Shown here in pieces: positions 11,211 through 34,232 of a stretch of DNA of 64,000 nucleotides. Location of the stretch: contig JBFKFZ010000001.1 of NCBI GenBank assembly GCA_041633555.1, positions 20,259-84,258 of the forward strand, given 5' to 3'. A model generated the notes under the pieces. The model made no database searches. It saw only the letters and a list, made by a program, of their open reading frames with translations, and was not told the origin of the DNA. The translations under genes and the position numbers were made by a program. This DNA is from Paracoccaceae bacterium (GTDB lineage: Bacteria > Pseudomonadota > Alphaproteobacteria > Rhodobacterales > Rhodobacteraceae). How positions within the stretch are numbered: the first letter of the stretch is position 1; each line of letters opens with the position of its first letter.

Positions 11211-11513
11211 CTATCCGCCCGTCAGCACCGTGAACTCGCCCTTTACGATCGGGCCACCCAGCATGCACATGTCCTTCATCCGCAGCGCCGGCATCTTGTT
11301 GATCAGGACGGTGAACGAGCCGACCGGGAACATGTGCGGCGCGGGCGGAACCGGCGGTGAGCCGGTCAGCGCCATATCCATCAGCGCGCGGGCCGCAGGC
11401 AGCTTGCCGACCAGCACGGTTATCGCGCAAGGCGGCAGAATCGGCGAAGGGAACGGCGGTATCGGCACCGTGCAGGTGTGAATGTCCGTCATGCGGGCTT
11501 GTGGAAATCCCAT
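11211..11513 (-). CDS. PAAR-domain spike-tip protein (100 aa, no toxin extension)
   Basis: PAAR-like repeats (VLVGKLPAARALMD, VLINKMPALRMKDM). ATGA overlap with the upstream ORF. Located downstream of vgrG. Confidence 0.85.
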   Translation of the reverse strand: MGFPQARMTDIHTCTVPIPPFPSPILPPCAITVLVGKLPAARALMDMALTGSPPVPPAPHMFPVGSFTVLINKMPALRMKDMCMLGGPIVKGEFTVLTGG

Positions 11514-12124
11514 CAGACCTTTCCCTTGTCGCCGGCTGCTATCGCAGCCGCAAGCTGACCGTTCCCACCACGCGCGATATCGATGGCACGGTCAATAAGT
11601 AATTGCAAATGTGCATCAAAATCAGCGGCGGCAGACAAGGATATCATGTTCATGCCGAAAGCGCAGGAAGACACCGCGCCCACAGGAGCCGGATATTCCG
11701 CAAGATCGCCGGACCCCATATTGCCGGGGGCATACATCGCTGCGGTCGCGCAAAGCTCGGTATCGTCGTCGATATAGACATTGTCGAGCGACACCCGCGC
11801 GGCCTCGCGGTTCTTTTCGGTCGGATCGAACACCCAGGCCTCGCTGGCCTTGAGGCAGGGCGTGGCGTCCTTCTTGTCCGGACCGACCACGTCGCGGGCG
11901 GCGATGCAGGCCCACCAAACCGCCTCTCGCGCCGGCAGCGCGATGGCCAGCAGCCTCAGGATATCGACCCAGGCCGCCTTCTCGGCCAGTTCCCCAAGCA
12001 CCACTTCAACCGGTGCGCTGACAGGAGCTGAGACCGGCACCGACAGTTTCGTATGTACCCGCGCCAGCATCCGGGCGGCGGGCTCCTTGGGGATCTTCTT
12101 GAGGTCTACAAAGCGTTCCGACAT
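11513..12124 (-). CDS. Hypothetical 203-aa protein between vgrG and PAAR (possible adaptor or accessory protein)
   Basis: ATG at 12124 preceded by GAGG. Its stop overlaps the PAAR start (ATGA). No TM segment or signal peptide, and no family I can name with confidence. Confidence 0.6.
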   Translation of the reverse strand: MSERFVDLKKIPKEPAARMLARVHTKLSVPVSAPVSAPVEVVLGELAEKAAWVDILRLLAIALPAREAVWWACIAARDVVGPDKKDATPCLKASEAWVFDPTEKNREAARVSLDNVYIDDDTELCATAAMYAPGNMGSGDLAEYPAPVGAVSSCAFGMNMISLSAAADFDAHLQLLIDRAIDIARGGNGQLAAAIAAGDKGKV

Positions 12125-12132
12125 GTCCAGCC

Positions 12133-14274
12133 TCAATTGATCAGGGTCAGGCCGCCCTTGAGGGTCAGTATCGCGTCCCCCTTGACGGTGCTCATCGGCG
12201 CTTTGGCGGTCAGCATGGCGGAGCCTTCGACATTGATCATCGGCCCCTTGATCGTCACGCCCTGATTGTTGATCAGGATCGAGGACGGCCCGACCTTGAG
12301 TTCGATCGACTGCGCGGCAGTAACCTCGACCTTGCCCGCCGACGTGTCCAGAGTGAAATTGCCGAGGCTGATGGTGACCGCCTCATTGCCCCGCGAGACG
12401 TTCCGCGTGACGTTGCCCTCCTTGACGGTCTGGGCGTAGTTGCCGGTGATCTCCACCGTCGACGTGCCTTCGACAGTCTCGGCATGGTCGGTCTTGACGA
12501 AGACCGTCTGGTTGCCCTCCTCGACGGTGAAGATGTGATCACCGGTTTTGATCGTCTCGGTCTTGGTGTGATATATCGTCTGGGTCAGGTCGCCCGGATC
12601 CATCTTTTCCATGCCGATGGTGATCTCGGCATTGTTCTTGATGGTTTCCTTGTAATCCTTCTCGGACTGCAGGCGCACAAACTCCTCGTCGATCTTATCC
12701 TCGAATATGAGCTCGTTGAACGTGTCGGCGCTTCCGCCTTTCGTACTTCGCGTGACGATCCCGGTCTGGGTCATGTTGTCGGGCAGCTTGTAGGGAGGCA
12801 TCGTGTCGGCATTATAGACCATGCCGGTACAGACCGGCCGGTCGGGGTTGCCTTCCTCAAAGAGAATGACCACTTCCTGGCCGATGCGCGGGATCCAGAT
12901 CATGCCCCAGTTCTTGCCGGTCCAGGGCATCACGCAACGCACCCAGCAGGTCGTGTTTTCGTTGTTCTCGCCGTCCCTGTCCCAGTGGAACTGAACCTTT
13001 ATGCGACCGTATTCGTCGGTGTAGATCTCTTCCCCCGAGGGTCCCGTCACGATCGCGGTGTGGATGCCCGGGATTTCTGGCCAATGGGTGGTGAAGGGCG
13101 CCCGGAAAGGTTCGTTCTTCGGAATGACCTCGAAGAGGCAGCGATAGGCGTCCTTGTTCGACTCGTCGGCTTCCAGCCGCTCGTCGAGCATCTGGTTCGT
13201 CGTCTCTTCATCTTCATAGTCGGATTCGACCTGCAGCTGGTGCGTTGCTGCGATGATCAGAAACTCGGTCTCATCCCGGATTCTCGGATGATCCTTCAGC
13301 TTGAAGGTCTGGCCGTTGGCCATGTTGCGCACGTTGCCCGCTCCACGCCAGCGCTGGTGCTGGACCGCCTGGGCCTCCATCCGGACCCGCGTCTTGCGTT
13401 CCGCCGCCTCGTCGATCTTGGACATGTCGTGATCCTGCGGACTGTCCATGCCGTTTTGCCGAAGATGGCCGGGATAGTCGTAGATCTCATGACTCCTATG
13501 CGAATGAGTGCCCCTCTCGATCGACTTGGACTGTTTCAGATCCGCGTTCGGCCGGGAGAAATCGAAGTCGTCGATCGTGACCTTGCCGGGCGTCTGCCCC
13601 TCGACGGCATTCCAGTCGAAGATGTGATCGTCGGCACGCCGATAACCCCCGGTTTCGCGGAACTTGAAGGGAAAAACCGGGCCGCCCGGGGTCTGTTTGT
13701 GCGCGCCGATGCCATCGGCCAGCACCAACTTCTCTTTCTTGTCGACCTCGATGAAAAAGAAATAGATGCCCTCCTCCTGCATCAGGCGGCATAGAAAGTC
13801 GTAATCGCTTTCGCGATACTGCACGCAGTAGGTACGTGCGGGGTAGGTCTCGGTCAGCTTGTCCTCGAGGTCCGATCCGAAACCGTAAACTCCGAGTATC
13901 TCCTTGATGATCTCGGGCGTCGACTTCTCTTGAAATATCCGGCTGTTCTGACCGCGAGTCAGAAACCAGAAGAATGGCCGGACCTGCGCGATGAAATGCC
14001 CCATCCCCTGGGATAGGCCGATATATTCCGCCGAGACACAACGCCCGGTAAAGGTGCGCTCTTCATCATCAGGCGTGTCGAGACAGAGCGTTATCCGCGC
14101 CCCCACGACCTTCTTCAGCTCCAGCGTCTTGTCCTTGCAGACGAACTCGATCTTCGTCTCGGTCAGCTTGCTGAGCCCCTCCACGACCTCGGCACTTTTG
14201 ACAAAGAGGTTCTCTGCCGAGTAATCACCTTCCATCCGGAGATTTCGGTTCTCAAGCTCCAAGTCCGCAACCAC
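12133..14274 (-). CDS. vgrG: T6SS spike protein VgrG (TssI); start uncertain (GTG 14274 or 14283, or ATG 14235)
   Basis: gp27/gp5-like sequence (FFWFLTRGQNSRIFQEKS, WVRCVMPWTGKNWGMIWIPRIGQEVVILFEEGNPDRP) and C-terminal beta-helix repeats. GGAAAGG lies 9 nt upstream of the GTG at 14274. Confidence 0.9.
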   Translation of the reverse strand: MVADLELENRNLRMEGDYSAENLFVKSAEVVEGLSKLTETKIEFVCKDKTLELKKVVGARITLCLDTPDDEERTFTGRCVSAEYIGLSQGMGHFIAQVRPFFWFLTRGQNSRIFQEKSTPEIIKEILGVYGFGSDLEDKLTETYPARTYCVQYRESDYDFLCRLMQEEGIYFFFIEVDKKEKLVLADGIGAHKQTPGGPVFPFKFRETGGYRRADDHIFDWNAVEGQTPGKVTIDDFDFSRPNADLKQSKSIERGTHSHRSHEIYDYPGHLRQNGMDSPQDHDMSKIDEAAERKTRVRMEAQAVQHQRWRGAGNVRNMANGQTFKLKDHPRIRDETEFLIIAATHQLQVESDYEDEETTNQMLDERLEADESNKDAYRCLFEVIPKNEPFRAPFTTHWPEIPGIHTAIVTGPSGEEIYTDEYGRIKVQFHWDRDGENNENTTCWVRCVMPWTGKNWGMIWIPRIGQEVVILFEEGNPDRPVCTGMVYNADTMPPYKLPDNMTQTGIVTRSTKGGSADTFNELIFEDKIDEEFVRLQSEKDYKETIKNNAEITIGMEKMDPGDLTQTIYHTKTETIKTGDHIFTVEEGNQTVFVKTDHAETVEGTSTVEITGNYAQTVKEGNVTRNVSRGNEAVTISLGNFTLDTSAGKVEVTAAQSIELKVGPSSILINNQGVTIKGPMINVEGSAMLTAKAPMSTVKGDAILTLKGGLTLIN

Positions 14275-14305: not shown

Positions 14306-14602
14306 TCAGTTGAGCGGTGCGTCAAATTCCAACAAATGATCGTCCCGGCGCAGCCGCTCGACGATCTCGGGATTGATGCCCCATAACGCAGCGAGATTGA
14401 CATCCTCGCCAAGGAACTGCTTCTGCTCGACTACCGTTGCGAAGTGCACGCAACGCACCGGCCGCGGAAAATTCCCGTCGCTCAGTAAGAGTTCATTGAG
14501 AAAGGCCTCTCCTTCGTACAGGTAGTAATGCGTCCGTTCCACAGAGATAAGCGTAATACGGTGGCCACCGCCGCCGCCGGGAAGGCCTTCAAAAGCATTC
14601 AT
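14306..14602 (-). CDS. Hypothetical 98-aa protein, translationally coupled to the sheath-like gene
   Basis: The ATG shares one nt with the upstream TGA (TGATG). Compositionally normal, no TM segment. Ends 22-31 nt before the probable vgrG start. Confidence 0.55.
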   Translation of the reverse strand: MNAFEGLPGGGGGHRITLISVERTHYYLYEGEAFLNELLLSDGNFPRPVRCVHFATVVEQKQFLGEDVNLAALWGINPEIVERLRRDDHLLEFDAPLN

Positions 14603-16383
14603 CACAGATCCTCTAGCAAAGCCGCCAACTCGGCATCCATGATATCATCATCATCGTCGTCGCCATTGGCGTCGTCCTCGTCGTCATCCTCGCCGAAGCT
14701 CGCCAGAAGTTCATCAAGCGAGCTGTCGGTCTCGTCATCCGCCTGGGATTCATCTTCTTCTGGCTCCGGTTCCGGCTCGGGCTCTCGCGGGGCGGGAATT
14801 TCTTCTTCAATCGTGATCACCGGCTGCAGCGGCTTGTGACGCTTGGGCTCGGGCGTCGCCCGCACCGCCTCGAGCGCGTCGGGAAGGACCGGCCTGCCCC
14901 AGGGCCCGGCAATCGGCACGCCGCTCAGCGCGTAGAAAGATCCGAGGCGGATCTCGTCGCGACCCTTGATCGACAGGACAGGCATTACGCCGCGCCGGGC
15001 GACAACCTCGATCTTGGAGGTGGTCAGGTTACGCTCGGTGCAAGGCAGCGCCACCTGATCGCCGTACCGGTCATTTATGTAGTGAAACGGAATGTCCCCC
15101 AGCGACATCACGCTGCCAGGCGACATCTCCGCGCCATCGTTGGTGTAAGTCCGCGCCAGAAGGATCGCGATCAGGACCACCGGGTTTGCCCAGAGCATGC
15201 CTGACAAGCCTTCCTGGTTGCTGAACTCCTCGAACTTGAAGGCGTAGATCGGGTCGGACTTCGCGCCATAGGGCCGGCGCAACATGAAGCGCGGCGTCGC
15301 AACCCCGAGATAGGCCGCCTCTGGCAGGGCCTGCAGCCGCTCCCATGCCCGCGAAACCAGCGGATGGCGCTTGCCCTCGGCAAGGTCCAGAAACCCCGGC
15401 GAGATCGCGGTGAAGAACGGCGAATCGACGTGAGCGGCCACCTTGGCGACCCGGCCGAGCAGTTCGGCATGCGGTGGCGTCTCCTCGAAGGTATAAAGCC
15501 CGAAGAGGGCAGAGAACCCGCCGGTGCCGGAGCCCGATCCTTCGCCGGTCGCGACCGCGTCGCGCAAGAGCGCGAAGAGCCCGCTCTCCGACAGATCGTC
15601 GCTCGCCGCCAGATCAATTGCGATTTCTTCGGCAGAGACATCGAACAGCACGACCTCCAGCGTCTCGTCGGTCTCGATGCTGCGGGCCAGCAGGTCGAGC
15701 GAGCGCCATTGCGACTCGACGGCCTGAAATTCCGGATGGTGCAGGATCAGCCGCATCGCCGAACCGAGCGCCTCATCGACCGCCGCCTTCATCGCCTCGG
15801 CGCCGGGATCGGGGGCAGCCACGATATGCGGCCCCACGACGCGCGCGATCAGATCGTCCGCGGGGCTCGCCTGCCGCAGCCGGGCCTTCGTGTCGCCGAT
15901 CAGCGCCTGAAAGTCGCTTAGCCTGCGATCGGCCGGCACTGCGGTGGCACCGGAGCGTTTCGGCAGCTTCAAGGTTCGGCCGAATGTCTCGCCCCAGCGC
16001 CGCAGTTCCTCTGACGCCTTTTCGACCATCGAGCCCGTGCCAAGCCGCTGCCGGAGCGCTGATAGCGCCTGGAACATCTCGACATTGTCGTAAATCTCAT
16101 CCGGGTGCAGATCGTCGAGACCGCCAAGCTTCACCTCGATCCCGGACCCGTCCTTGCCGGTCGGCAGGATCAGCGTGGTCGCGAAATCCTCGATGACAGC
16201 CTCGATCGTATCGACGTCCAACTGGACCGGCCGGCGATTGGCCAGCGCCTCACCAGTCTCGATCACGCCATTTGCCGACCGGCCGGTGAAATCGCCGAAG
16301 ACCCCGATGCGAAACCGCGTGCGAACCGGCGGATCGGGCCGCGCGAATGGTATCCTGCCGAAAGCGGGGATCCGGTCGCTCAT
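14602..16383 (-). CDS. Fused TssB-like/TssC-like sheath paralog lacking the TssC C-terminal domain, with a Pro-rich then poly-acidic tail
   Basis: N-terminus (VRTRFRIGVFGDFTGRS...VQLDVDTIEAVIEDF) parallels TssB (RVQIEYDVELYG...FMEIDVDNFDERM). The middle (LILHHPEFQAVESQWRSLDLL; LYTFEETPPHAELLGRVAKVAAHV; ATPRFMLRRPYGAKSDP) parallels TssC of this same locus. Tail is EPEPEPEPEEDE...DDDDDD. Confidence 0.8.
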   Translation of the reverse strand: MSDRIPAFGRIPFARPDPPVRTRFRIGVFGDFTGRSANGVIETGEALANRRPVQLDVDTIEAVIEDFATTLILPTGKDGSGIEVKLGGLDDLHPDEIYDNVEMFQALSALRQRLGTGSMVEKASEELRRWGETFGRTLKLPKRSGATAVPADRRLSDFQALIGDTKARLRQASPADDLIARVVGPHIVAAPDPGAEAMKAAVDEALGSAMRLILHHPEFQAVESQWRSLDLLARSIETDETLEVVLFDVSAEEIAIDLAASDDLSESGLFALLRDAVATGEGSGSGTGGFSALFGLYTFEETPPHAELLGRVAKVAAHVDSPFFTAISPGFLDLAEGKRHPLVSRAWERLQALPEAAYLGVATPRFMLRRPYGAKSDPIYAFKFEEFSNQEGLSGMLWANPVVLIAILLARTYTNDGAEMSPGSVMSLGDIPFHYINDRYGDQVALPCTERNLTTSKIEVVARRGVMPVLSIKGRDEIRLGSFYALSGVPIAGPWGRPVLPDALEAVRATPEPKRHKPLQPVITIEEEIPAPREPEPEPEPEEDESQADDETDSSLDELLASFGEDDDEDDANGDDDDDDIMDAELAALLEDL

Positions 16384-17249
16384 GCCTTGTCACCGCGCAT
16401 TTCGGCCAGTTCAGCGCGCAGGGCGCGTATCTCGTCGTGCAATTCCATCACATGGGCATCGACCTGATCGGTCTCCGACTTGACCAACTCCCGCAGTTTC
16501 CCGAACTCCTGTTCGGCCTCTTCCTCGACCGCCGCCTGCATCGTGTTAACAAGGAGGCCGATGAAGAGGTTCAGCACCGAGAATGCGGTGACAATGATGA
16601 AGGGTACGAAGAACGCCCAGGCATTCGGAAACTCCTGCATCACCGGCCGCACGATCCCCATCGACCAGCTTTCGAGCGTCATGATCTGGAACAGCGAATA
16701 GAGCGACCGGCCGAGCGTGCCGAACCAGGCGTCGAACGCATTGCCGTACATGATCGTCGCCATCACGCCAAAGACGTAATAGACGATCGAGAGCATCACG
16801 ATGACAGCACCCATGCCGGGCAGCGCGTCGAGAAGGGCCTGCACCACGGCACGCATCTGCGGCACGACCGAAAGCAGGCGCATGGCCCGGATGACGCGCA
16901 GACCGCGTAGTGCCGAAAGGCTGTCGGTTTGCGGCAAGAGGCCAACGCTGACCACGAACAGATCGAAGATGTTCCATGCGTTGCGGAAGAAGCCAAGCCC
17001 ATAGGCATAGAACTTGAGCAAGAGCTCGATCACAAAGATCGTCAAAACGGTCTTGTCGATGACGTAGAGCGCCCCGCCAAAATTTGCCTGAATTCGGTCT
17101 GATGTGCCCAGACCCAGCGTGATTGCGTTGAATATGATCACGCCGAGAATGCCGGTCTGCACCGCATTTGTTTCCAGCCAGGCGCGCAGCCGCGCCCTGT
17201 GATGGGTTTCTGGCGCTTGCTCCATTTCTTGTTCCATCGATCTGTCCAT
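16380..17249 (-). CDS. Bacterial voltage-gated sodium channel (BacNaV, NaChBac/NavAb family)
   Basis: S4 with Arg at every third residue (LRGLRVIRAMRLLSVVPQMR), selectivity filter FQIMTLESWSMGIVRPV, S6 and a C-terminal coiled coil. ATGA overlap with the next gene; start 21 nt after the clpV stop. Confidence 0.9.
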   Translation of the reverse strand: MDRSMEQEMEQAPETHHRARLRAWLETNAVQTGILGVIIFNAITLGLGTSDRIQANFGGALYVIDKTVLTIFVIELLLKFYAYGLGFFRNAWNIFDLFVVSVGLLPQTDSLSALRGLRVIRAMRLLSVVPQMRAVVQALLDALPGMGAVIVMLSIVYYVFGVMATIMYGNAFDAWFGTLGRSLYSLFQIMTLESWSMGIVRPVMQEFPNAWAFFVPFIIVTAFSVLNLFIGLLVNTMQAAVEEEAEQEFGKLRELVKSETDQVDAHVMELHDEIRALRAELAEMRGDKA

Positions 17250-17270: not shown

Positions 17271-19982
17271 TTACTCGAAACTATAGGAAAACTCATTATC
17301 AGTCACATCTATCGCCACTTTCGTGACCTCGCCTCCCTCCAGCATCCGTTTCAGGAATTCCGCCGAGATTTCAGGCAGCATCGTGTTGGTGACGATCGCG
17401 TCGATCATCCGGCCGCCGCTTTCCAGCTCTTGGCAGCGGTCGACGATCGTCTGCACCACCGCGTCGCTATATTCGAACGGCACCTTGTGGCTTTGCATCA
17501 CGCGCTTGCGGATCCGCTCAAGCTGCAACACCGTAATCTTGCCGATCATCTCGGGGCTAAGCGGGTAATAGGGGATCGTCACCAGCCGCCCCAGCAGGGC
17601 CGCCGGGAAAATTTTCAGCAGCGGCTCGCGCAGCGCCTTGGCGATGCCCTCAGGCTCGGGCAGAAGGTCGGGATCGGCGCAGAGATCCATGATCAGGTCG
17701 CTGCCCGCGTTCGAGGTCAACAGGATCAGCGTGTTCTTGAAGTCGATCGTTCGGCCTTCGCCATCCTCCATCACGCCCTTGTCGAAGACCTGAAAAAAGA
17801 TCTCGTGCACATCGGGATGCGCCTTCTCGACCTCGTCGAGCAGCACCACCGAATAGGGCTTGCGCCGCACTGCCTCGGTCAGCACGCCGCCCTCGCCATA
17901 GCCGACATAACCCGGCGGCGCGCCCTTCAGGCTGCTGACGGTATGGGCTTCCTGATACTCGCTCATGTTGATGGTGATGACATTCTGTTCGCCGCCGTAA
18001 AGTACCTCCGCCAACGCCAGCGCCGTCTCGGTCTTGCCGACACCGGACGTGCCCGCCAAGAGGAAGACGCCAATCGGCTTCGAGGGGTTGTCGAGCCCGG
18101 CGCGGCTGGTCTGGATCCGCTTGGCGATCATCTTCATCGCGTGATCCTGACCGATGACGCGCTGGGCGAGACGATCTTCCAGTTTCAGAATCGTCTCGAT
18201 CTCGTCCTTCACGATGCGCCCGACGGGGATTCCGGTCCAGTCGCCGACGACGCTTGCAATTGCTTGCGCATCGACGATCGGCAGGATCAGCGGGTCCTCG
18301 CCCTGCAGTCTTTCCAGTTCGGCATTCTTGGCTTTCAACTCATCCAACAGCCTGGCGCGCGCCTTGGCATCCATCGGGCTGGCCTCTGCAGCGGCTTCGC
18401 TGTCCGCCTCGGGCGCATCGACCGGCGCGCCTCCGGCACGCAGTTGCGCGCGCAGATCGAGGATCGCCTCGACAACGGCTTTCTCGGCCTCCCAGCGACT
18501 GTTCAGCCCTTCCAGCCGCTTTTCCTCGGCCTCTTTCAGACTGGTGATCGTGCTCCGCCGCTCCTCGACCTCATAGCCCGCGGTTTCGTCACGCTCTATG
18601 ATCTCCAGTTCGGTCGTCAGGGCGTCGATCCGCTTGCGGGCATCGTCGACTTCCGCTGGCACGGCGTGCTGTGAAACCGCTACCCGCGCACAGGCGGTAT
18701 CGAGGACAGAAACCGATTTGTCGGGCAATTGCCGCGCCGGGATATAGCGCGCCGAGAGAGTGACCGCCGCTTCGATTCCCTCATCGAGAACCTGCACCTT
18801 GTGGTGCTTCTCCAGCATCGTCGCGATGCCGCGCATCATTAGCTTGGCCTTCGGAATGTCGGGTTCATCGACCGCGATCACCTGGAACCGGCGGGTCAGG
18901 GCCGGGTCCTTCTCGATATGCTTCTTGTATTCGGCCCACGTCGTCGCGCCGACGGTGCGCAGGGTCCCGCGCGCCAGCGCGGGTTTCAGCAAGTTCGCGG
19001 CATCGCCGGTGCCCGCTGCACCGCCGGCGCCCACCAAAGTATGGGTCTCGTCGATGAACATGATGATCGGTGTGGGCGAGGCCTGAACCTCGTCGATGAC
19101 GGCGCGCAGGCGCTTCTCGAACTCTCCCTTCATCGACGCGCCGGCCTGCAGCAGACCGACATCGAGCGCCAAAAGACGCGCATCATGCAAAGCGGGTGGG
19201 ACATCGCCGCGGGCGATCCGCAGCGCAAACCCCTCGACCACGGCGGTCTTGCCGACCCCCGCCTCTCCGGTCAGGATCGGGTTGTTCTGGCGCCGCCGCA
19301 TCAGCACATCTACGATCTGGCGGATCTCTTCGTCGCGTCCGACGATCGGGTCGATCTCGCCCTTCCGCGCCTGTTCGGTCAGGTCGGTACAGAACTGCGA
19401 CAGCGCCTCTTCCTTGCCCATCACCGCGGGTGCGGGCTCGCCTCCATCCGCGCGCGCCTTCGCAGCACTCCCGGTGGCTGACTTGTCCTGCGGCGTCATC
19501 CGGTCTTCGGGTGAGCCATCCGTGATCTTGTGAAAGTCGTCGGCCAGATCGTCGGCCTTGATCCGGGCGAGTTCGGGCGACATCGAGGACAGGATGTTGC
19601 GCAGGTTCGGGGTCTTCAGCATGCCGAGGATCAGATGGCCGGTGCGCACCTGGTTTGAAGAATAGAGCAGCGACCCCCAGACCCAGGCCCGCTCCATCGC
19701 ATCCTCGAGATGGCCCGACAGATCGCTGACCGCCGTCGCCCCGCGTGGCAGCGCGTCCAGAGCGGCGGTCATCTGCGTTGCGATCTTCGATGGGTCCAGA
19801 TCATATTGCCGAATGATCCGATGGATGTCGCTGTCCTGGCCGTTCAGGATCTGGTGGATCCAGTGCACGATCTCGACATAGGGATTGCCGCGCATCTTGC
19901 AGAATACGGTCGCGCTCTCAATCGCCTGATACCCCAGCGAATTCAGCTTCCCGAATAGCGCGACACGGCTGATCTCTGTCAT
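17271..19982 (-). CDS. clpV: T6SS AAA+ ATPase ClpV (TssH)
   Basis: 903 aa with two AAA+ modules ([18 protein letters not shown]) and the ClpV-type N-domain start [24 protein letters not shown]. Confidence 0.95.
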
Positions 19983-24859: not shown

Positions 24860-26353
24860 TCAGCCCTTCTCTGCGGGCAGTTTTGATACCAGCCTCAAGG
24901 ACACTGATAGCCCTTCAAGCTGATAATGAGGTCGAAGGAAAAACTTCGACGAGTAGTATCCTGGATTTCCTTCCACATCCTCCACGACAACTTCGGCAGC
25001 AGCCAGCGGCTGACGCGCCTTTACCGCTTCGGGCGATGTTTCGGAGTTGAAATCGACGTAGTTGTTAATCCATTCCTGCAGCCAAATCTGCATTTCTTCG
25101 CGGCTCTTGTAAGACCCCACTTTATCACGAACGATGCATTTCAGGTAGTGGGCGAAACGGCAGGTCGCGAATAGGTATGGCAGCCGCGCCGCCAGATTGG
25201 CGTTGGAGGTCGCGTCCGGATCGGAATATTCAGCCGGCTTGTGCAGGGACTGCGCGCCGATAAAGGCCGCGAGGTCCGAGTTCTTGCGATGAATGAGAGG
25301 CATCATGCCGTTCTTTGCCAATTCGGCCTCGCGCCGGTCCGAGATCGCGATCTCGGTCGGGCATTTCTGGTCGATGCCGCCATCGTCGGTCGGGAAGGTA
25401 TGCGATGGCAGGTTTTCCAGCGCTCCGCCAGACTCGACCCCACGAATGCGCGAACACCAGCCGTATTCCTTGAACGAACGGTTGATGTTGACGGCCATGC
25501 CATAGGCCGCGTTCACCCAACTGTACTTGTTAGCGTCCGATCCGTCGGTATCCTCCTCGAAGGCGAAGGCCTCAACCGGGTCGGTTTTCGATCCGTAAGG
25601 CAGACGCCCCAGAAAGCGCGGCATCGCAAGGCCGACATACTTGCTGTCTTCGCTGTCGCGCAGCGAGCGCCAGCTTGCATATTCCGGCGTCTGGAATATC
25701 TTGGTCAGATCGCGCGGGTTTGCCAGTTCCGACCAACTGTCCATCTGAAAGAGCGCCGGGTCGGCACCGGCAATCAGCGGCGCATGGGCCGCGGCGGCGA
25801 TCTTGGCCATTTCGCCGAGAAGTTCCACGTCGGGCGGCGAATGGTCGAAATGATAATCCGCCACTAGCGTGCCATAGGGCTCGCCGCCGAACTGGCCGAA
25901 TTCCTCTTCATAGATCTTTTTGAAGATCGGCGACTGGTCCCAGGCGGTGCCTTTGAACTTGCGCAGGGTCTTATGCATATCCTTTTTCGAGATATTCATG
26001 ACCCGGACCTTCAGCATCTCGTCCGATTCAGTGTTGTTCACCAGATAATGCAGCCCGCGCCAGGCGCTTTCCATCTGCTGGAAATCGGCGTGGTGCAGGA
26101 TCAGGTTAACCTGTTCGGTCAGCTTCTTGTCGATTTCGGCGATGATCCCCTCGATCGAGCGAAGCGCGTCGTCCGAAATAAGCCCCGTATTTTCCAGCGC
26201 CTGCTGCGCCAGCGTCTTGACCGCCTGTTCGACGGCTGTTCGGGCCTGTTCGGATTTCGGTCGGAACTCTTTCTGCAGCAGCGCCTCGAAATCAGAGGCC
26301 TCTGCTACGGTTTCGCCAGCCTCGCCTGCGGCTTGTTTTTCTGTCTCGGCCAT
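24860..26353 (-). CDS. tssC: T6SS contractile sheath large subunit TssC (VipB/ImpC)
   Basis: 497 aa with conserved blocks HHADFQQMESAWRGLHYLV, AMPRFLGRLPYG, LPYLFATCRFAHYLK. Confidence 0.95.
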   Translation of the reverse strand: MAETEKQAAGEAGETVAEASDFEALLQKEFRPKSEQARTAVEQAVKTLAQQALENTGLISDDALRSIEGIIAEIDKKLTEQVNLILHHADFQQMESAWRGLHYLVNNTESDEMLKVRVMNISKKDMHKTLRKFKGTAWDQSPIFKKIYEEEFGQFGGEPYGTLVADYHFDHSPPDVELLGEMAKIAAAAHAPLIAGADPALFQMDSWSELANPRDLTKIFQTPEYASWRSLRDSEDSKYVGLAMPRFLGRLPYGSKTDPVEAFAFEEDTDGSDANKYSWVNAAYGMAVNINRSFKEYGWCSRIRGVESGGALENLPSHTFPTDDGGIDQKCPTEIAISDRREAELAKNGMMPLIHRKNSDLAAFIGAQSLHKPAEYSDPDATSNANLAARLPYLFATCRFAHYLKCIVRDKVGSYKSREEMQIWLQEWINNYVDFNSETSPEAVKARQPLAAAEVVVEDVEGNPGYYSSKFFLRPHYQLEGLSVSLRLVSKLPAEKG

Positions 26354-26356
26354 GCC

Positions 26357-26884
26357 TTACTCCGTCTCTTTTTGTTCTGACTTCTCGTCGGCCGTTTCCG
26401 CGGGCTTCTCGGCCAGGGTCGCAAGCAAAGCCGGATCCTGGATCACCTTGCGGATCAGTTCCTCTGCGCCGGTCTTGCCATCCATGTAGGTCATCAAGTT
26501 CGACAACTGGGTGCGCGCATCCAGCAGTTTCTTCAGCGGCTCCACCTTCGCGGCAATGGCTGCGGGACTGAAATCATCCATCGACTCGAAGGTGATATCG
26601 ACCGCCATGTTGCCTTCACCGGTCAGCGTGTTGGGCACAGAAAACGCAGCCCGGGGCTTCATCGACTTCATCCGCTCGTCGAAATTGTCGACGTCGATCT
26701 CCATGAACTTGCGGTCGGCAACCGAAGGCTGCGGCGCTTCCGACTTGCCCGCCAGGTCGGACATGACACCCATCACGAAGGGCAACTGGATCTTCTTTTC
26801 GGCCCCGTACAATTCCACATCATATTCGATCTGGACCCGTGGCGCACGGTTTCGCGCGATGAACTTCTGCGAACTTCTTGCCAT
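26357..26884 (-). CDS. tssB: T6SS contractile sheath small subunit TssB (VipA/ImpB)
   Basis: RVQIEYDVELYGAEKKIQLPFVMGVMSDLAG is the TssB signature. 3 nt upstream of tssC. Confidence 0.95.
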   Translation of the reverse strand: MARSSQKFIARNRAPRVQIEYDVELYGAEKKIQLPFVMGVMSDLAGKSEAPQPSVADRKFMEIDVDNFDERMKSMKPRAAFSVPNTLTGEGNMAVDITFESMDDFSPAAIAAKVEPLKKLLDARTQLSNLMTYMDGKTGAEELIRKVIQDPALLATLAEKPAETADEKSEQKETE

Positions 26885-26945: not shown

Positions 26946-27974
26946 TTACTCATCGACCAGGCCTCCGATCAAATTGACATTCTCGATGCCGTTCGGGGCC
27001 ATATCCTTGACGATCGTCAGAAAATCAGCGCTGACCAGCCGTTTCGCCCGCGTCAAAAGGATCGGCACCGGGCTGGAGGGTTCTGCCCGCTTGTAATAGG
27101 CGATGATCCTGTCGAGCGCATTCTGCACATCATTGGGAGAGTTGATGGCCCCGACGCCACCGCCGGCCGCCTTCGCGCCGGCAGGGGCGGCTGCCGGTTC
27201 ACCGGCTTCGGCCCCGGCCTCGACCCCTTCGACTTCAACGGCATCACCGGCCACCGGCTCCAGCCGGGCGATGACCTGTCCCAGCAGCTTCATCAACGGG
27301 TCCAGTTCCGGCCCGCGCCCGGGAAGCATTTCGTCGAATTTGGCGTTGATCGCGCGTACGTTCTCGAGCGATTGACGGGCTCCGGTCAGTGCGGACTGCA
27401 GAAACTCCTGGGCCGTGTCCTGAAAGGCCGCCGCGATCGAGGAGGAGTCCGGAACTTCCTCGTCATCCTCTCCTGCGGTCGCCTCGCCCTCGGCGATGGC
27501 GATGTCGCGCAGGCTCATCCGCCCGAAGGTGCGGCTGTCGGTCAGCGGCGTGATCCTGATGCCGCGCAATATCGTATCGGGTGCGGCGAGCGACAGAATC
27601 ACGTTGATCCGCTGTGTCGGATCATCGTCATCATCGGCATCGAGCTGCGGGTGGCAGGTGTCCCAGTAGCGCTCCAGGCAGCCCCTGACATAGGCGGTTC
27701 CGTCGGCAAAGCCGGGAAAGCCCCGAAGACGCAATTCCGACATCGACAGAAACACGCCGGCCCGCAGGTCGTGGCTCTGTTCCAGCACCGCCAGAGCGGC
27801 CCCTGTCACTTCCTTGAAATCGGGATCTTCCGCGGCGATGATCTTGTCCCCGGCCTGACGCTCTTCGCCCGGCTGCGCCGCCAGTTCCAGGGTCATGAAG
27901 GCAAGATCGTAGACCATGTCCTCGCCACTTGGGTTTTCGTCGCCGTGGCTCTGAAGAAGTGCCTCTAGATCCAT
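26946..27974 (-). CDS. tssA: T6SS protein TssA (ImpA N-terminal domain family)
   Basis: ImpA_N-type start MDLEALLQSHGDENPSGEDMVYDLAFMTLELAAQ. First gene of the operon. Confidence 0.9.
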   Translation of the reverse strand: MDLEALLQSHGDENPSGEDMVYDLAFMTLELAAQPGEERQAGDKIIAAEDPDFKEVTGAALAVLEQSHDLRAGVFLSMSELRLRGFPGFADGTAYVRGCLERYWDTCHPQLDADDDDDPTQRINVILSLAAPDTILRGIRITPLTDSRTFGRMSLRDIAIAEGEATAGEDDEEVPDSSSIAAAFQDTAQEFLQSALTGARQSLENVRAINAKFDEMLPGRGPELDPLMKLLGQVIARLEPVAGDAVEVEGVEAGAEAGEPAAAPAGAKAAGGGVGAINSPNDVQNALDRIIAYYKRAEPSSPVPILLTRAKRLVSADFLTIVKDMAPNGIENVNLIGGLVDE

Positions 27975-28171: not shown

Positions 28172-28588
28172 ATGGGGTTCTCAAGGGCGGTATTGTGTGC
28201 CGCTGCGATCTGTGCCGGCCCGGCGTTCGCGCAGGACGGAAACCTGACGATCGAGCTCAACAAGTTCGAAGATACCGATGGCGGCAACTGCCAGGCGTTC
28301 TTTCTTTACCGCAATGGCACGGGCAAATCCTTCGAGGAATTCGAGATGTCGCTGGCGATCCTCGACACCTCCGGCGTGATCGACAGGCTCTTGACCGTCG
28401 ATGCGGCCCCCCTGCCCGTGGCCCGGACGACGTTGAAACTGTTCGAGATCCCGTCCATCGAATGTGCCGCGATATCGGAGCTTCTGCTGCATGCCATAGA
28501 TGCCTGTCGCCCGCAGAACGAGGATCGGATGGATTGCTTTCCCATCATCGATCTGGTCAGCCGCACCCCGGCTGCCTTGGTCAAATAG
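28172..28588 (+). CDS. Secreted hypothetical protein (138 aa, 4 Cys in the mature part)
   Basis: Signal peptide MGFSRAVLCAAAICAGPAFA/QDG. Stop lies 3 nt before the exbB start. The track start at 28136 is TTG; ATG 28172 is preferred. Confidence 0.6.
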   Translation: MGFSRAVLCAAAICAGPAFAQDGNLTIELNKFEDTDGGNCQAFFLYRNGTGKSFEEFEMSLAILDTSGVIDRLLTVDAAPLPVARTTLKLFEIPSIECAAISELLLHAIDACRPQNEDRMDCFPIIDLVSRTPAALVK

Positions 28589-28591
28589 GTC

Positions 28592-29215
28592 ATGCTCGAA
28601 GGCCTGTTTGACTCGCTCGGCACCGGCGGGCCGATCATCATCATACTGCTGTGCATTTCCTTGCTGTCGGTGGTCCTGATCATCGCCAAGACCCTGCAAC
28701 TGCTGCCCGTGCGTGGCGGCGCCAAGCTGCGCGATGCCGCATTTGCCAAATGGAGAGAGGGCGAGCGCGACGCCGCCCGATCCCTGCTTGCCGGTGGCAG
28801 ATCCCCGGCGGACCGGGTCACGACCTTCGCGATGGACGGAACTCTCCGCGGCCTGCCCCGCGCCCCGCTGGAGGCGGAGGTCGAGCGCCAGGGCAATGCC
28901 GAGGTCGAGGCAATGTCGCGGCATATCCGGCTGCTCGAACTTGTCGCGATGATCTCGCCGCTGCTGGGGCTTCTGGGAACCGTCTTGGGCATGATCCAGT
29001 CGTTTCAGGAACTGGAACTGGCGCAAGGCGCGGCCAACGCCTCGGTCTTGGCAGGCGGTATTTGGCAAGCGCTTCTGACCACCGCCGCTGGCCTGATCGT
29101 CGCGATCCCGGCGGCGATTGCGGCCAGTCTGCTGAGCGCAAGGATCGACGCCGCCGCGCATCTCATCGAGGGCGCTGTCGGCCGGTTCTTCCTGGAGCTG
29201 GACACCAAGAGCTGA
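28592..29215 (+). CDS. MotA/TolQ/ExbB-family proton channel protein
   Basis: Three TM helices; conserved LELVAMISPLLGLLGTVLGMIQSF and GIWQALLTTAAGLIVAIPA. Confidence 0.9.
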   Translation: MLEGLFDSLGTGGPIIIILLCISLLSVVLIIAKTLQLLPVRGGAKLRDAAFAKWREGERDAARSLLAGGRSPADRVTTFAMDGTLRGLPRAPLEAEVERQGNAEVEAMSRHIRLLELVAMISPLLGLLGTVLGMIQSFQELELAQGAANASVLAGGIWQALLTTAAGLIVAIPAAIAASLLSARIDAAAHLIEGAVGRFFLELDTKS

Positions 29216-29228
29216 AGTCCGAAAGGGA

Positions 29229-29648
29229 ATGGCCATGGAGCTACGCCGAGCAAGACCCGCCAAGACCCTGATCTCGCTCGTGCCGATGATCGACGTCATG
29301 CTGATCCTGCTGGTTTTCTTCATGGTCACGTCGAGCTATCTGAACCTCGACATGATGCCGATGGTCGAAAGCGCCGAAGATGCGCCGGCGGCCGGGGCAA
29401 GGGACTCTGCCGCGCCGCTGCTGATCCGCATCGCTGCCGATGGCCGCCCGCACATCCGGGGCCAGCCGCTCGACGCCAGCCAACTGACGTCGTTGATCCG
29501 TTCGCGGCTGACCGAGAGCCCGCTGTCCAGCGTGATTGTCCTTCCATCTGGTGCGGCCACAACGCAGCACCTGGTTTCATTGATGGACACGGCCACACAG
29601 GCGGGGGCGACCCGATTGCGCCTGATCCGGCTGGAGCCGCGGCCATGA
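29229..29648 (+). CDS. ExbD/TolR-family protein (copy 1)
   Basis: N-terminal TM helix with ISLVPMIDVMLILLVFFMV. 139 aa. Confidence 0.85.
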   Translation: MAMELRRARPAKTLISLVPMIDVMLILLVFFMVTSSYLNLDMMPMVESAEDAPAAGARDSAAPLLIRIAADGRPHIRGQPLDASQLTSLIRSRLTESPLSSVIVLPSGAATTQHLVSLMDTATQAGATRLRLIRLEPRP

Positions 29649-30049
29649 AGCTGTGCCGGGTCCGATCGCAACAAAGATCCGAGACGATCATTGCGCTGAT
29701 CGACGTGGTTTTCTTTCTTCTCGTGTTCTTCATGCTGATCGGGCGGATGGACGCCACCGCTCCGTTCGAAGTACACCCCGCTACCGCGGTGACAGGCGCC
29801 GACCTGCCCGCAGGGGGCGCCACGCTCTCGATCAGTGCGGCGGGGGCGCTTGCGCTTGACGGCACGGCCATCGCCGCGCCCGACCTGATGCCAACGCTAG
29901 CAGTCATGCTTGCCGAAAGCCCCGACTTATTGATCCGGGTCAATGCCCACAGGGATGCGCAGCTGCACGGGATCCTGCCGCTGATCGCCGAGATCGAGCG
30001 CGCGGGCGCGCGCGACGTGGTGCTTGTCGTGACGCCGGAGAGATCCTGA
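29645..30049 (+). CDS. ExbD/TolR-family protein (copy 2)
   Basis: IIALIDVVFFLLVFFML. 134 aa. ATGA overlap with copy 1. Confidence 0.85.
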   Translation: MKLCRVRSQQRSETIIALIDVVFFLLVFFMLIGRMDATAPFEVHPATAVTGADLPAGGATLSISAAGALALDGTAIAAPDLMPTLAVMLAESPDLLIRVNAHRDAQLHGILPLIAEIERAGARDVVLVVTPERS

Positions 30050-31503: not shown

Positions 31504-31505
31504 GA

Positions 31506-33056: not shown

Positions 33057-33149
33057 AGCAATTGCATGTCATTCCTCGCGCGCGACCGGCGACCCGGCCC
33101 TGTTGCATGTGATCATTGCTATTGACCTCCTTGGGCGCAATAGTTCCTC

Positions 33150-34232
33150 ATGTCTTTTTTTGGCCTTGGGAAGTTCATGATGCATTTCGTTCGCCTGTTC
33201 GCGTGTTTGTTCATCTGGTCGCTCGCGACCATGGCACCGGCTCAGGACAATCCGTTCGCCCCCGGCTGGGTGCTGCAGCCAGAGGCCTCATCGCTTCGCT
33301 TTCAGTCGGTGAAGAACCAGTCGAAGATCGAATCTTCCTCTTTCGCCACGATCTCTGGGGAGATCAATCCTTCGGGCAAGGCTGGCGTGAAGATCCTGCT
33401 GGATAGCGTCGACACGAAGATCGATCTGCGCAACGTCCGGATGCGCTTCCTGTTCTTCGAGACGTTCAAGTTCCCCGAAGCCACCATCAGCGTTCAACTC
33501 GATGCAGCCGATATCGCGGATCTGGCGCAAGTCAGGCGCAAGACGATGGTTCTGCCTTACACGATCACCCTGCACGGCATCACCAAGGCGCTGGAAGCCA
33601 ATCTTGCCCTGACCCTGATCGACGATGATCTGGTGGCGGTCTCGACCAACGAACCGATCACACTTGCGGTTGCCGACTTTGCCCTGACCGATGGTCTAGA
33701 GAAGCTCGAAGATGCCGCCAGCGTCGAGATCGTACCCTCGACTACTGTCACATTCGACTTCATTTTCAATCGTTTGCCTGGCGAAGCTGATGCAACTATT
33801 ACGGCGGCCACGACTCCTGAAAAGCCCGCCAGCGTCGCGCTTGAAGCCCAGGGTGATTTCTCGCTGGAAGCCTGCGTCGGTCGGTTCGAGATCCTGTCAC
33901 GTACCGGAAACATCTATTTCGGGCCCGGCTCTGCCCGGCTCACCGCCGATAGCTGGCCACTTCTTGATACGGTCGCCGACATCGTGCAGCGGTGCCCCGG
34001 CCTTGTCATTCAAGTGGGCGGCCATACCGACAGCCTTGGGCCTGACGATGCGAACCAGACCCTGTCCGAACGGCGTGCCGGCTCGGTCGTCACTTATCTC
34101 GCCGGGAAGGGCATCGCCGCTGACCGCGTGATTCCGGTCGGGTTCGGAGAGAAGTACCCTGTCGCCACGAATGATACTCCGAAGGGTCGCGGCCAGAACC
34201 GGCGGATCGAGTTTTCCGTCGGCAACAACTGA
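33150..34232 (+). CDS. Exported YceI-like domain fused to an OmpA/MotB peptidoglycan-binding domain
   Basis: Signal peptide (M)MHFVRLFACLFIWSLATMAPAQ. YceI-like LRFQSVKN...FATISGEI...LDSVDT. OmpA-like IYFGPGSARL...VGGHTDSLG...NRRIEFSV. The start could also be 33177/33180. Confidence 0.8.
   Translation: MSFFGLGKFMMHFVRLFACLFIWSLATMAPAQDNPFAPGWVLQPEASSLRFQSVKNQSKIESSSFATISGEINPSGKAGVKILLDSVDTKIDLRNVRMRFLFFETFKFPEATISVQLDAADIADLAQVRRKTMVLPYTITLHGITKALEANLALTLIDDDLVAVSTNEPITLAVADFALTDGLEKLEDAASVEIVPSTTVTFDFIFNRLPGEADATITAATTPEKPASVALEAQGDFSLEACVGRFEILSRTGNIYFGPGSARLTADSWPLLDTVADIVQRCPGLVIQVGGHTDSLGPDDANQTLSERRAGSVVTYLAGKGIAADRVIPVGFGEKYPVATNDTPKGRGQNRRIEFSVGNN

What the first reader, a model, noticed from the sequence alone, without database searches (positions are those of the whole stretch)
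14602..16383. Second, fused TssB-TssC-like sheath paralog that lacks the TssC C-terminal domain and ends in a poly-acidic tail
This is in addition to canonical tssB/tssC (24860-26884). The 593-aa protein begins like TssB (VRTRFRIGVFGDFTGRS / VQLDVDTIEAVIEDF against RVQIEYDVELYG / FMEIDVDNFDERM). It continues like the middle of TssC: LILHHPEFQAVESQWRSLDLLARSIETDETLEVVLFDVS against LILHHADFQQMESAWRGLHYLVNNTESDEMLKVRVMNIS. Further matches are LYTFEETPPHAELLGRVAKVAAHV against DYHFDHSPPDVELLGEMAKIAAAAHA, and ATPRFMLRRPYGAKSDPIYAFKFEE against AMPRFLGRLPYGSKTDPVEAFAFEE. The helical C-terminal TssC domain is replaced by a Pro-rich spacer and ~60 residues of Asp/Glu. A single-chain sheath protomer mimic without that C-terminal domain could cap, nucleate or poison sheath polymerisation, or recruit ClpV/TagJ. 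Its function is unknown to me.
Basis: seen in the sequence. Interest (0 to 1): 0.7.

Follow-up and report, generated by a model that had tools for sequence, protein, structure and literature searches.

The report
Single-chain sheath mimic (short TssCL)
This gene encodes a one-piece copy of the two type VI secretion sheath proteins that has lost the part needed to build the sheath; it belongs to a widespread family named once (TssCL) but never tested, and probably regulates the sheath rather than forming it.

Summary
Window 14602-16383 (minus strand) encodes a 593-aa protein inside a complete H1-type T6SS cluster that also has canonical tssB/tssC. It is a true fusion: residues 20-120 match TssB 32-133, and residues 156-480 match TssC from residue 20 to the end of its N-domain. 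The TssC C-terminal gp25-like domain is absent. It is replaced by a Pro-rich spacer and a 58-residue tail that is 52% Asp/Glu.

The family is not new. Suria et al. 2022 named it TssCL from roseobacter genomes, in silico only.

What I add:
- The core keeps sheath domains 2 and 3 but not the inner handshake layer, so it should not polymerise.
- This is a rare short form. 58 of 63 roseobacter relatives carry a full extra TssB plus long acidic repeats in front.
- The tail holds two conserved motifs, LDxLLxxF and a near-invariant C-terminal DxELAALLxxL. These recur as tandem repeats across the superfamily.
- The superfamily reaches Planctomycetes, Acidobacteria and other Alphaproteobacteria. In Planctomycetia it is fused to TssA.
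- In roseobacters it follows a BacNaV sodium-channel gene.

The function is untested. My best guess is a non-extendable protomer mimic acting with TssA at a sheath end.

The parts
14602..16383 (-). tssCL (short form): 593-aa single-chain TssB-TssC-like protein, stop codon included
16327..16383 (-). Residues 1-19: conserved N-terminal arm (F8-G9 ... R15-P16). Possible remnant of the TssB b1 donor strand, but homology was not detected here.
   Evidence: Alignment A1 consensus. N-termini of the superfamily share a PhixFGxPhi motif. hhalign starts only at residue 20. Pfam VipA reaches profile position 9-10 in some distant members.
16024..16326 (-). Residues 20-120: TssB-like segment (TssB 32-133: strands b2/b3 of sheath domain 2 and the domain-3 helix)
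   Evidence: domain definitions from PMC5807055
15919..16023 (-). Residues 121-155: connector between the TssB-like and TssC-like parts
14944..15918 (-). Residues 156-480: TssC-like part, i.e. the N-terminal helices (from the SDFQALIGD motif) plus the VipB N-domain. It stops where VipB_2 would begin.
14779..14943 (-). Residues 481-535: end of the fold and the Pro-rich disordered spacer
   Evidence: pLDDT <50 from 496; composition
14605..14778 (-). Residues 536-593: acidic tail (52% D/E, no K/R)
14695..14718 (-). Tail motif A: LDELLASF (556-563), family consensus LDxLLAxF
   Evidence: predicted short helix 555-561
14605..14637 (-). Tail motif B at the extreme C-terminus: DAELAALLEDL (583-593). 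(M/I)Dx(E/D)LAALLxxL is found in 80 of 81 relatives.
16380..17249 (-). BacNaV-type voltage-gated sodium channel gene. Its stop overlaps the tssCL start. It lies directly upstream of tssCL in 61 of 62 roseobacter loci.
14306..14602 (-). 98-aa ORF whose start overlaps the tssCL stop. No family hit. Conserved between tssCL and vgrG in 38 of 80 loci.
24860..26884 (-). Canonical tssB (26357-26884) and tssC (24860-26353), the real sheath genes of the same cluster
26946..27974 (-). Short-type tssA (TIGR03363, ImpA_N 12-129), the proposed partner
17271..19982 (-). clpV, ClpV1 class (R6 and D87-equivalent present)
   Evidence: PMC4239648

Best explanation
The gene is the short form of TssCL. It is a single polypeptide that reproduces the middle and outer layers of one TssB-TssC sheath protomer (sheath domains 2 and 3, in the numbering of Salih et al. 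2018). It lacks the inner layer (domain 1: the TssC gp25-like C-domain with strands b11-b13, and a recognisable TssB b1 strand).

That inner layer makes the 'handshake' mesh between protomers. The protein therefore should not be able to extend a sheath (inferred). It is an accessory T6SS subunit, not a building block.

The most likely mode of action (inferred) is that it occupies the place of a free TssBC protomer on the machinery that handles protomers. That means the ImpA_N/Nt1 arms of the short TssA, and/or the exposed end of the sheath. Because it cannot be extended, it would act as a stopper, stabiliser or timer of sheath growth. This would make it a 'firing coordinator', comparable in role to TagA/TsmA, TsmB or TagJ.

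The disordered acidic tail carries two conserved amphipathic motifs, LDxLLAxF and C-terminal DxELAALLxxL. These look like docking peptides for a further, still unknown, conserved T6SS partner.
For: SHOWN
- Fusion anatomy and absence of VipB_2. Confident sheath-like fold with a disordered tail.
- Strong conservation: 236 species-level genomes, and invariant columns through the core and both tail motifs.
- Always inside T6SS clusters next to canonical tssB/tssC.
- Rosetta-stone fusions. At least 22 Planctomycetia clusters have core + repeats of LDPELAALLG + a full short TssA. 58 of 63 roseobacter relatives have a full TssB + acidic LD-motif repeats + core.
- The core-only form lies beside tssK-tssL-tssM in three unrelated genomes.

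FROM THE LITERATURE
- The handshake is built from TssC b11-13 and TssB b1 (PMC5807055).
- TssA Nt1 binds only the TssB+TssC complex, is cognate-specific, and is proposed to hand protomers to the sheath tip (PMC11106082).
- The composition of the sheath distal end is unresolved and may be sheath subunits in an unusual conformation (PMC5813253).
Against: - No experiment exists for any member.
- AF2 of a natural core-TssA fusion gave pTM 0.50, and the linker motifs had pLDDT <50. This means no predicted packing of core on ImpA_N and no cis-docking of the motifs.
- The fusion to TssA may reflect only shared location, not direct binding.
- A conserved N-terminal FG arm might still be a donor strand, so the claim 'cannot join the mesh at all' is not proven.
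- Two Planctomycete copies are orphan genes away from any T6SS gene within 10 kb.
- The partner of the tail motifs is unknown.
Confidence: 0.4

Rival explanations
1. ClpV/TagJ platform or decoy. As a monomer, the core permanently exposes the outer sheath layer (domain 3, TssC N-terminal helices) that marks a contracted sheath. It would therefore bind ClpV (and, in long forms, TagJ through the TssB N-terminal peptide), to recruit, titrate or time sheath recycling.
For: - The gene lies directly after clpV in Aliidongia, and after clpV plus the channel gene in roseobacters.
- The TssC N-terminal region is retained from residue 20.
- Tail motif LDELLAS resembles the V. cholerae VipB ClpV-binding motif LLDEIM (PMC4239648).
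- Long forms carry the TagJ-binding TssB peptide QKFIARNRAPRVQIEYDVELYG.
Against: - This ClpV has R6 and the D87 equivalent. That is the ClpV1 class, whose N-domain groove is blocked and does not bind the TssC helix.
- HsiC1 lacking residues 1-33 still binds ClpV1.
- The window protein has no TssB N-terminal peptide.
- The family also occurs beside tssKLM and fused to TssA.
Confidence: 0.2
2. A true alternative sheath subunit that co-polymerises with TssB/TssC inside the sheath wall. This is the possibility raised by Suria et al.
For: - Long forms begin with a complete TssB that could pair with TssC and enter the sheath.
Against: - The window protein has no TssB module and no TssC C-domain.
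- NCBIfam scores are far below the equivalog cutoffs: 130.5 vs 271.5, and 27 vs 97.25.
- Polymerisation needs the TssC C-terminus (PMC3597794).
- The rough NJ tree suggests the TssB module was lost three times while the core and tail were kept.
Confidence: 0.1
3. Spike or cargo helper: an adaptor or chaperone for the VgrG-DUF6931-PAAR module encoded just downstream.
For: - It lies immediately upstream of vgrG in 80 of 81 loci.
- In Planctomycetia the core-TssA fusion is divergent from vgrG and a DUF6931 fusion.
- Acidic tails are common in chaperones (general knowledge).
Against: - It has no similarity to known adaptor families.
- It has a sheath fold.
- In other phyla it lies beside tssKLM or after clpV without an adjacent vgrG.
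Confidence: 0.08
4. Ion-coupled regulator. TssCL works together with the BacNaV channel encoded just upstream. The polyanionic tail (hundreds of acidic residues in long forms) responds to Na+ entry, or binds the channel, and links membrane depolarisation to T6SS assembly or firing.
For: - The channel gene is directly upstream in 61 of 62 roseobacter loci, and its stop overlaps the tssCL start here.
- The channel has a TLESWSM filter and matches NavMs/NavAb at E 1e-77 to 1e-68.
- N-terminal extensions of 500-1480 aa are 25-44% D/E.
Against: - Relatives with the same core and tail exist without a channel (Aliidongia; L075).
- The evidence is gene adjacency only.
- No known mechanism links BacNaV channels to T6SS.
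Confidence: 0.07
5. A decaying duplicate with no function.
For: It is truncated relative to TssC and diverged (23-29% identity to TssB/TssC).
Against: - Intact ORF with a confident fold.
- 54% mean column identity over 45 homologues, with many invariant residues.
- Present in 236 species genomes with conserved synteny.
- A superfamily across several phyla.
Confidence: 0.02

Closest known systems
TssCL ('long TssC') of roseobacter T6SS1 clusters, Suria et al. 2022, Front Microbiol 13:988044 (PMC9515649)
   Same: - VipA-like plus VipB domains in one polypeptide.
- Same H1-like, tssJ-less cluster alongside canonical tssB and tssC.
- 57-63% identical to the copies in Leisingera, Ruegeria ANG-S4 and Tateyamaria ANG-S1.
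   Different: - The described TssCL is 1,684 aa with two VipA domains. This one is 593 aa with one, and has no TssB module or repeat region.
- The paper did not note the missing VipB_2 domain, the acidic tails and motifs, the channel neighbour, or relatives outside roseobacters.
Canonical TssB-TssC (VipA-VipB, HsiB1-HsiC1) sheath protomer; closest solved structure P. aeruginosa TssB1C1, 5N8N
   Same: Same fold for the domain 2 sheet and the domain 3 helices, and the same order of elements.
   Different: - One chain instead of two.
- No TssC C-terminal gp25-like domain.
- No detectable TssB b1 strand or TssB C-terminus.
- An added acidic tail.
- Below both NCBIfam equivalog cutoffs.
TssC40 / ImpD, the second TssC of Agrobacterium and Rhizobium (PMC3702570)
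   Same: It is a second, non-redundant TssC paralog inside a T6SS cluster.
   Different: The Rhizobium johnstonii copy has VipB + VipB_2, no VipA part, and lacks only the N-terminal ~55 residues. That is the opposite truncation.
Firing coordinators TagA/TsmA, TsmB (TagB) and TagJ, which work with TssA (PMC6745524, PMC7896307, PMC13584744)
   Same: - The proposed role is the same: control of sheath growth or stability at a sheath end together with TssA.
- Relatives are physically fused to TssA.
   Different: - No sequence or fold relation.
- The window protein has no ImpA_N domain.
- The role is inferred, not shown.
Specialised terminal sheath paralogs of extracellular contractile injection systems (Afp4/Pvc4 type; from my own knowledge)
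   Same: This is a sheath paralog with a special, non-repeating position in the tail.
   Different: Those paralogs keep the handshake domain and are part of the sheath wall.

Membership tests
TssC, contractile sheath large subunit (TIGR03355; Pfam VipB + VipB_2) | VipB N-terminal domain | tested here: met
   PF05943, residues 198-480, E 2.8e-41
TssC, contractile sheath large subunit (TIGR03355; Pfam VipB + VipB_2) | C-terminal gpW/gp25-like domain (VipB_2) carrying the handshake strands needed for polymerisation | tested here: not met
   There is no PF18945 hit, whereas the canonical TssC scores E 1.4e-42. The fold ends near residue 490 and the rest is disordered.
TssC, contractile sheath large subunit (TIGR03355; Pfam VipB + VipB_2) | Score at or above the NCBIfam equivalog cutoff | tested here: not met
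   130.5 bits against a cutoff of 271.5
TssC, contractile sheath large subunit (TIGR03355; Pfam VipB + VipB_2) | Forms tubules with TssB | not testable with these tools
   This needs purification and electron microscopy.
TssB, contractile sheath small subunit (TIGR03358; Pfam VipA) | Full-length VipA domain including the N-terminal b1 strand and the C-terminal region | tested here: not met
   Only profile positions 28-120 of 155 match. hhalign covers TssB 32-133 only. NCBIfam gives 27 bits against a cutoff of 97.25.
TssCL (Suria et al. 2022) | VipA and VipB domains in one polypeptide | tested here: met
TssCL (Suria et al. 2022) | Encoded in a roseobacter H1-like T6SS cluster that keeps separate tssB and tssC | tested here: met
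   Cluster map. The closest relatives are Rhodobacterales.
TssCL (Suria et al. 2022) | Sequence homology to TssCL of the squid ANG isolates | tested here: met
   61% to Ruegeria sp. ANG-S4 (L033), 63% to Tateyamaria sp. ANG-S1 (L069), and 57% to a Leisingera plasmid copy
TssCL (Suria et al. 2022) | Large size with a second, TssB-identical VipA domain at the N-terminus | tested here: not met
   The protein is 593 aa with one VipA-like stretch, and only 2 open codons lie upstream. 58 of 63 relatives have the TssB module.
TssC40 / ImpD type second TssC | VipB + VipB_2 without a VipA part | tested here: not met
   The Rhizobium copy L085:10357-11745 has VipB + VipB_2, while the window protein has VipA + VipB only.
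TssA / TagA family | ImpA_N (Nt1) domain | tested here: not met
   There is no ImpA_N in the window protein. It is present only in the Planctomycetia fusions.

The most novel reading that the evidence does not exclude
TssCL and the BacNaV channel encoded immediately upstream form an electrically gated control of the T6SS. Depolarisation (for example on attack or contact) opens the channel. The strongly polyanionic TssCL tail, or in long forms a 500-1,500-residue polyanion tethered to the sheath through a built-in TssB, then responds to the local Na+ burst or to the channel's cytoplasmic domain. That response starts, stops or fires the sheath.
Probability: 0.07. Interest if true: 0.9.

Novelty: new member of a known kind. 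Interest (0 to 1): 0.55.

Why it matters
[quoted passage not shown] This is especially unclear for systems with a short TssA and no TagA.

This family could bear on both questions:
- It is a natural single-chain TssBC protomer that has shed exactly the polymerisation layer.
- It is conserved in hundreds of genomes across several phyla.
- It is repeatedly fused to TssA or TssB.

That makes it a ready-made probe. It could show what TssA's Nt1 domain recognises on a protomer, and it is a candidate cap or terminator.

The family is missing from current lists of T6SS accessory genes. Automatic annotation usually labels it 'sheath large subunit', which can distort T6SS gene counts and TssBC-based phylogenies.

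Its constant pairing with a bacterial voltage-gated sodium channel in roseobacters is a separate, unexplained lead.

Tried and rejected
1. Identity with Agrobacterium/Rhizobium TssC40 (ImpD). Rejected: that paralog keeps VipB_2 and lacks VipA.

2. Tail motifs as LLDEII-type helices for the ClpV N-domain groove. Weakened: this ClpV has the R6/D87 pair that blocks the groove.

3. The invariant C-terminal LAALLxxL as a free-carboxylate ligand, for example for the TagJ TPR domain. Weakened: the same motif occurs internally, as up to ~8 tandem repeats, in the Planctomycetia TssA fusions and in P0197.

4. AF2 of a natural core-TssA fusion, to see whether the motifs or ImpA_N dock on the core. Uninformative or negative: linker pLDDT 28-48, pTM 0.50. 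No coordinates or PAE are available.

5. Search for the tail motifs elsewhere in the window. Only the two copies in TssCL itself were found.

6. Homology of the N-terminal arm to TssB b1. Not detected by hhalign. It is suggested only by Pfam matches starting at profile position 9-10 in a few distant members.

7. Literature search for a characterised family. Only Suria et al. 2022 uses the name TssCL. Searches for fused, TssC-like or sheath-like proteins gave nothing else.

8. NCBIfam and Pfam searches on the 98-aa neighbour gave no hit.
Full report
**1. What is there**

The finding's coordinates hold one ORF on the minus strand (14602-16383, ATG, 593 aa). It lies in a complete, co-directional T6SS cluster with the gene order of the P. 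aeruginosa H1 system:

- tssA 26946-27974
- tssB 26357-26884
- tssC 24860-26353
- hcp
- tagJ
- tssE, tssF, tssG
- clpV 17271-19982
- an Ion_trans channel gene 16380-17249
- the ORF itself
- a 98-aa ORF
- vgrG
- a DUF6931 gene
- PAAR
- tagH
- tssK
- tssL-OmpA
- tssM
- tagF
- PP2C, followed by a divergent Ser/Thr kinase

There is no tssJ. The ORF's ATG overlaps the channel stop (ATGA), and its stop overlaps the start of the 98-aa ORF. Only two open codons lie upstream, and an independent assembly has the same arrangement. The short length is therefore real.

**2.

- Pfam finds a VipB N-domain (198-480, E 2.8e-41) and a partial VipA (24-114, profile 28-120 of 155, above the gathering score). It finds no VipB_2.
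- NCBIfam sees both sheath families, but far below the equivalog cutoffs.
- BLASTP against the window's own TssC and TssB gives 29% identity (E 2e-30) and 23% identity (E 3e-5).
- Profile-profile comparison sharpens the borders. Residues 20-120 equal TssB 32-133 (E 1e-17). From S156 the protein equals TssC from residue 20 (E 4e-18). The TssC N-terminal helices are therefore retained too (SDFQALIGD ~ SDFEALLQKE).
- AF2 gives a confident model of residues 1-495 (pTM 0.78) and a disordered tail with short helices at 555-561 and 584-592.
- The best PDB fold matches are TssC chains of T6SS sheaths. The best sequence match is P. aeruginosa TssC1 (5n8n_B, E 3.7e-33).
- The tail is a Pro-rich spacer followed by 58 residues with 30 D/E and no K/R.
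The rest is right.

**3. Anatomy in terms of the sheath**

I use the domain numbering given for the closest solved sheath (PMC5807055).

- The inner layer (domain 1) is the handshake sheet. It is made of TssC b11-b13 (the C-domain) and TssB b1.
- The middle layer (domain 2) is TssB b2/b3 interlaced with TssC b1-4 and b8.
- The outer layer (domain 3) is a three-helix bundle from TssB 117-133 and TssC 39-54 and 66-86.

The protein keeps the segments that build domains 2 and 3. It lacks the whole TssC C-domain, and no TssB b1 equivalent is detectable.

A conserved N-terminal PhixFGxPhi arm (F8-G9 here) is shared by the superfamily. It might be a remnant of the donor strand, but hhalign does not support this. 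Lossi et al. showed that HsiB1C1 polymerises through the C-terminus of HsiC (PMC3597794). The inference is a protomer mimic that cannot extend a sheath.

**4. The family**

More than 100 close homologues (53-87% identity) are all from Rhodobacterales. They are named 'sheath large subunit', 'sheath domain-containing protein' or even 'FimV'. A scan of one genome per species found 236 relatives, and the best 80 are nearly all Rhodobacterales.

The synteny clpV-(hyp)-channel-tssCL-(98-aa)-vgrG-DUF6931-PAAR is conserved. The channel is present in 61 of 62 loci, vgrG in 80 of 81, and the 98-aa ORF in 38 of 80.

In most loci the reading frame stays open from the channel stop to the core. This gives N-terminal extensions of 500-1,480 residues that are 25-44% D/E. 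These start with a complete TssB copy (63-86% identical to the window's TssB), followed by tandem acidic repeats carrying the motif D-L-D-x-L-L-x-x-L.

- 58 of 63 bounded frames have this long form.
- Five, including the window, are short.
- A rough NJ tree places the short forms in three places inside long-form clades. This suggests secondary loss of the TssB module and repeats while the core and tail were kept (no support values).

**5. Tail motifs**

The tail is not plain poly-acid. The alignment shows near-invariant L556, L559, L560, A561, F563 (LDxLLAxF). It also shows D583, L586, A587, A588, L589, L590, L593.

The extreme C-terminus (M/I)Dx(E/D)LAALLxxL is present in 80 of 81 relatives. 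The same motif occurs in three further places:

- at the end of ~600-aa relatives in Acetobacteraceae, Aliidongia and Planctomycetes;
- three times in P0197;
- up to about eight times in tandem in the linkers of Planctomycetia fusion proteins.

It is therefore an old short linear motif of this superfamily. Because it also occurs internally, it does not need a free carboxylate.

**6. The superfamily is much wider than reported**

An exhaustive phmmer search gave 4,117 hits. The best 150 all have E < 1e-64. Many are 490-530-aa proteins covering residues ~14-496, with VipA + VipB, no VipB_2 and no tail. They come from Planctomycetes, Acidobacteria and Deltaproteobacteria/Thermodesulfobacteriota.

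Gene contexts vary:

- beside tssK-tssL-tssM in three genomes, one of which also shows canonical tssB/tssC, hcp and a long tssA;
- orphan in two Planctomycetes;
- directly after clpV in an H1-like Aliidongia cluster without a channel.

At least 22 Planctomycetia clusters encode core + motif repeats + a full short-type TssA in one protein of 1,008-1,332 aa. One of these lies next to vgrG and a DUF6931 fusion.

**7. Literature**

Suria et al. 2022 (PMC9515649) described 'TssCL' in the roseobacter symbionts of the squid accessory nidamental gland. They saw it as an apparent TssB-TssC fusion found only in roseobacters, with no experiment. It is the only paper in the library using the name. A 2026 review of T6SS accessory factors does not mention it.

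The second TssC of Agrobacterium/Rhizobium (TssC40/ImpD, PMC3702570) is a different truncation. It has VipB + VipB_2 and no VipA.

**8. How it probably works**

Shown: it is a conserved, cluster-encoded, folded mimic of the TssBC protomer without the polymerisation layer. Its disordered tail bears conserved docking-type motifs. It has been fused repeatedly to TssA and to TssB.

From the literature:

- TssA Nt1 (ImpA_N) binds only the TssB+TssC complex, in a cognate-specific way, and is proposed to deliver protomers to the sheath tip (PMC11106082).
- Short TssA proteins work with partners such as TsmB or TagJ.
- The make-up of the distal end is unresolved (PMC5813253).

Inferred: TssCL takes the place of a protomer on TssA and/or at a sheath end. 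Being non-extendable, it stops, stabilises or times sheath growth. In long forms the built-in TssB would anchor it in the sheath, with the rest hanging from the TssB C-terminus. That terminus tolerates fusions such as sfGFP (my own knowledge). I put this model at about 0.4.

The ClpV/TagJ platform idea is the main rival (0.2). It is weakened because this ClpV is the ClpV1 class with a blocked groove. AF2 on a natural TssA fusion did not show any docking. The link to TssA therefore rests on gene fusion and on the literature alone.

**9. Verdict**

The feature is real and correctly described, but it is already named in the literature, so it is not a discovery of a new kind. What remains valuable is the following:

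- the domain-level reading (domains 2+3 only);
- the motif-bearing tail;
- the TssB- and TssA-fusion relatives;
- the breadth of the superfamily;
- the constant BacNaV neighbour.

None of these is in the published description, and together they make a testable case for a new class of sheath regulator.

Noticed in passing
window 16380-17249 (-): A BacNaV-type voltage-gated sodium channel gene sits inside the T6SS cluster. It has a TLESWSM selectivity filter and a C-terminal coiled-coil-like tail, and it matches NavMs 5hvx at E 6e-77 and NavAb. It is translationally coupled to tssCL. It lies directly upstream of tssCL in 61 of 62 roseobacter loci, but is absent from the related Aliidongia cluster.
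   Followed up: partly
window 14306-14602 (-): There is a 98-aa ORF (MNAFEGLPGGGGGHRITLISV...) between tssCL and vgrG. Its start overlaps the tssCL stop. It has no Pfam or NCBIfam hit. It is conserved at this position in 38 of 80 related loci, in both long- and short-form lineages.
   Followed up: partly
window 11513-12136 (-); L089:5552-6916: A DUF6931 gene follows vgrG in 78 of 80 loci. In a Planctomycetia contig, DUF6931 is fused to a Chlor_dismutase domain next to vgrG and the core-TssA fusion. This suggests DUF6931 belongs to the same functional neighbourhood.
   Followed up: no
L016, L067, L008 and 55 other loci (open frames from the channel stop to the core): Long-form TssCL proteins are 1,000-2,050 aa. 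They consist of a complete TssB, then 3-22 copies of an acidic LDxLLxxL-type repeat (the same consensus as eukaryotic paxillin LD motifs, presumably by convergence), then the core. Public annotation often starts these genes too late and misses the TssB module. An example is the 1,136-aa CDS in Ruegeria conchae L001, against a 1,386-codon open frame.
   Followed up: partly
L083:10001-11473 and L086:10001-11500: Two Planctomycete genomes carry the core-only gene as an orphan, with no T6SS gene within 10 kb on either side.
   Followed up: no
window 3342-30225: The cluster has no tssJ, and TssL carries an OmpA peptidoglycan-binding domain. TagF, PP2C and a divergent Ser/Thr kinase flank tssM, as in threonine-phosphorylation-controlled H1-type systems.
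   Followed up: no
window 28181-34232: Upstream of tssA lie two ORFs without any family hit (28181-29329, 29326-30225). Next come a DUF4384 protein (30049-31503, +), a caspase-like Peptidase_C14 protein (31506-33056, -) and a YceI-OmpA protein (33150-34232, +). A DUF4384 domain is also fused to the T6SS kinase in the Aliidongia locus L090.
   Followed up: no
L064: One relative (59% identity, long form, same synteny) sits in a MAG labelled Granulosicoccus (Gammaproteobacteria). This is either a binning error or a horizontal transfer of the whole module.
   Followed up: no
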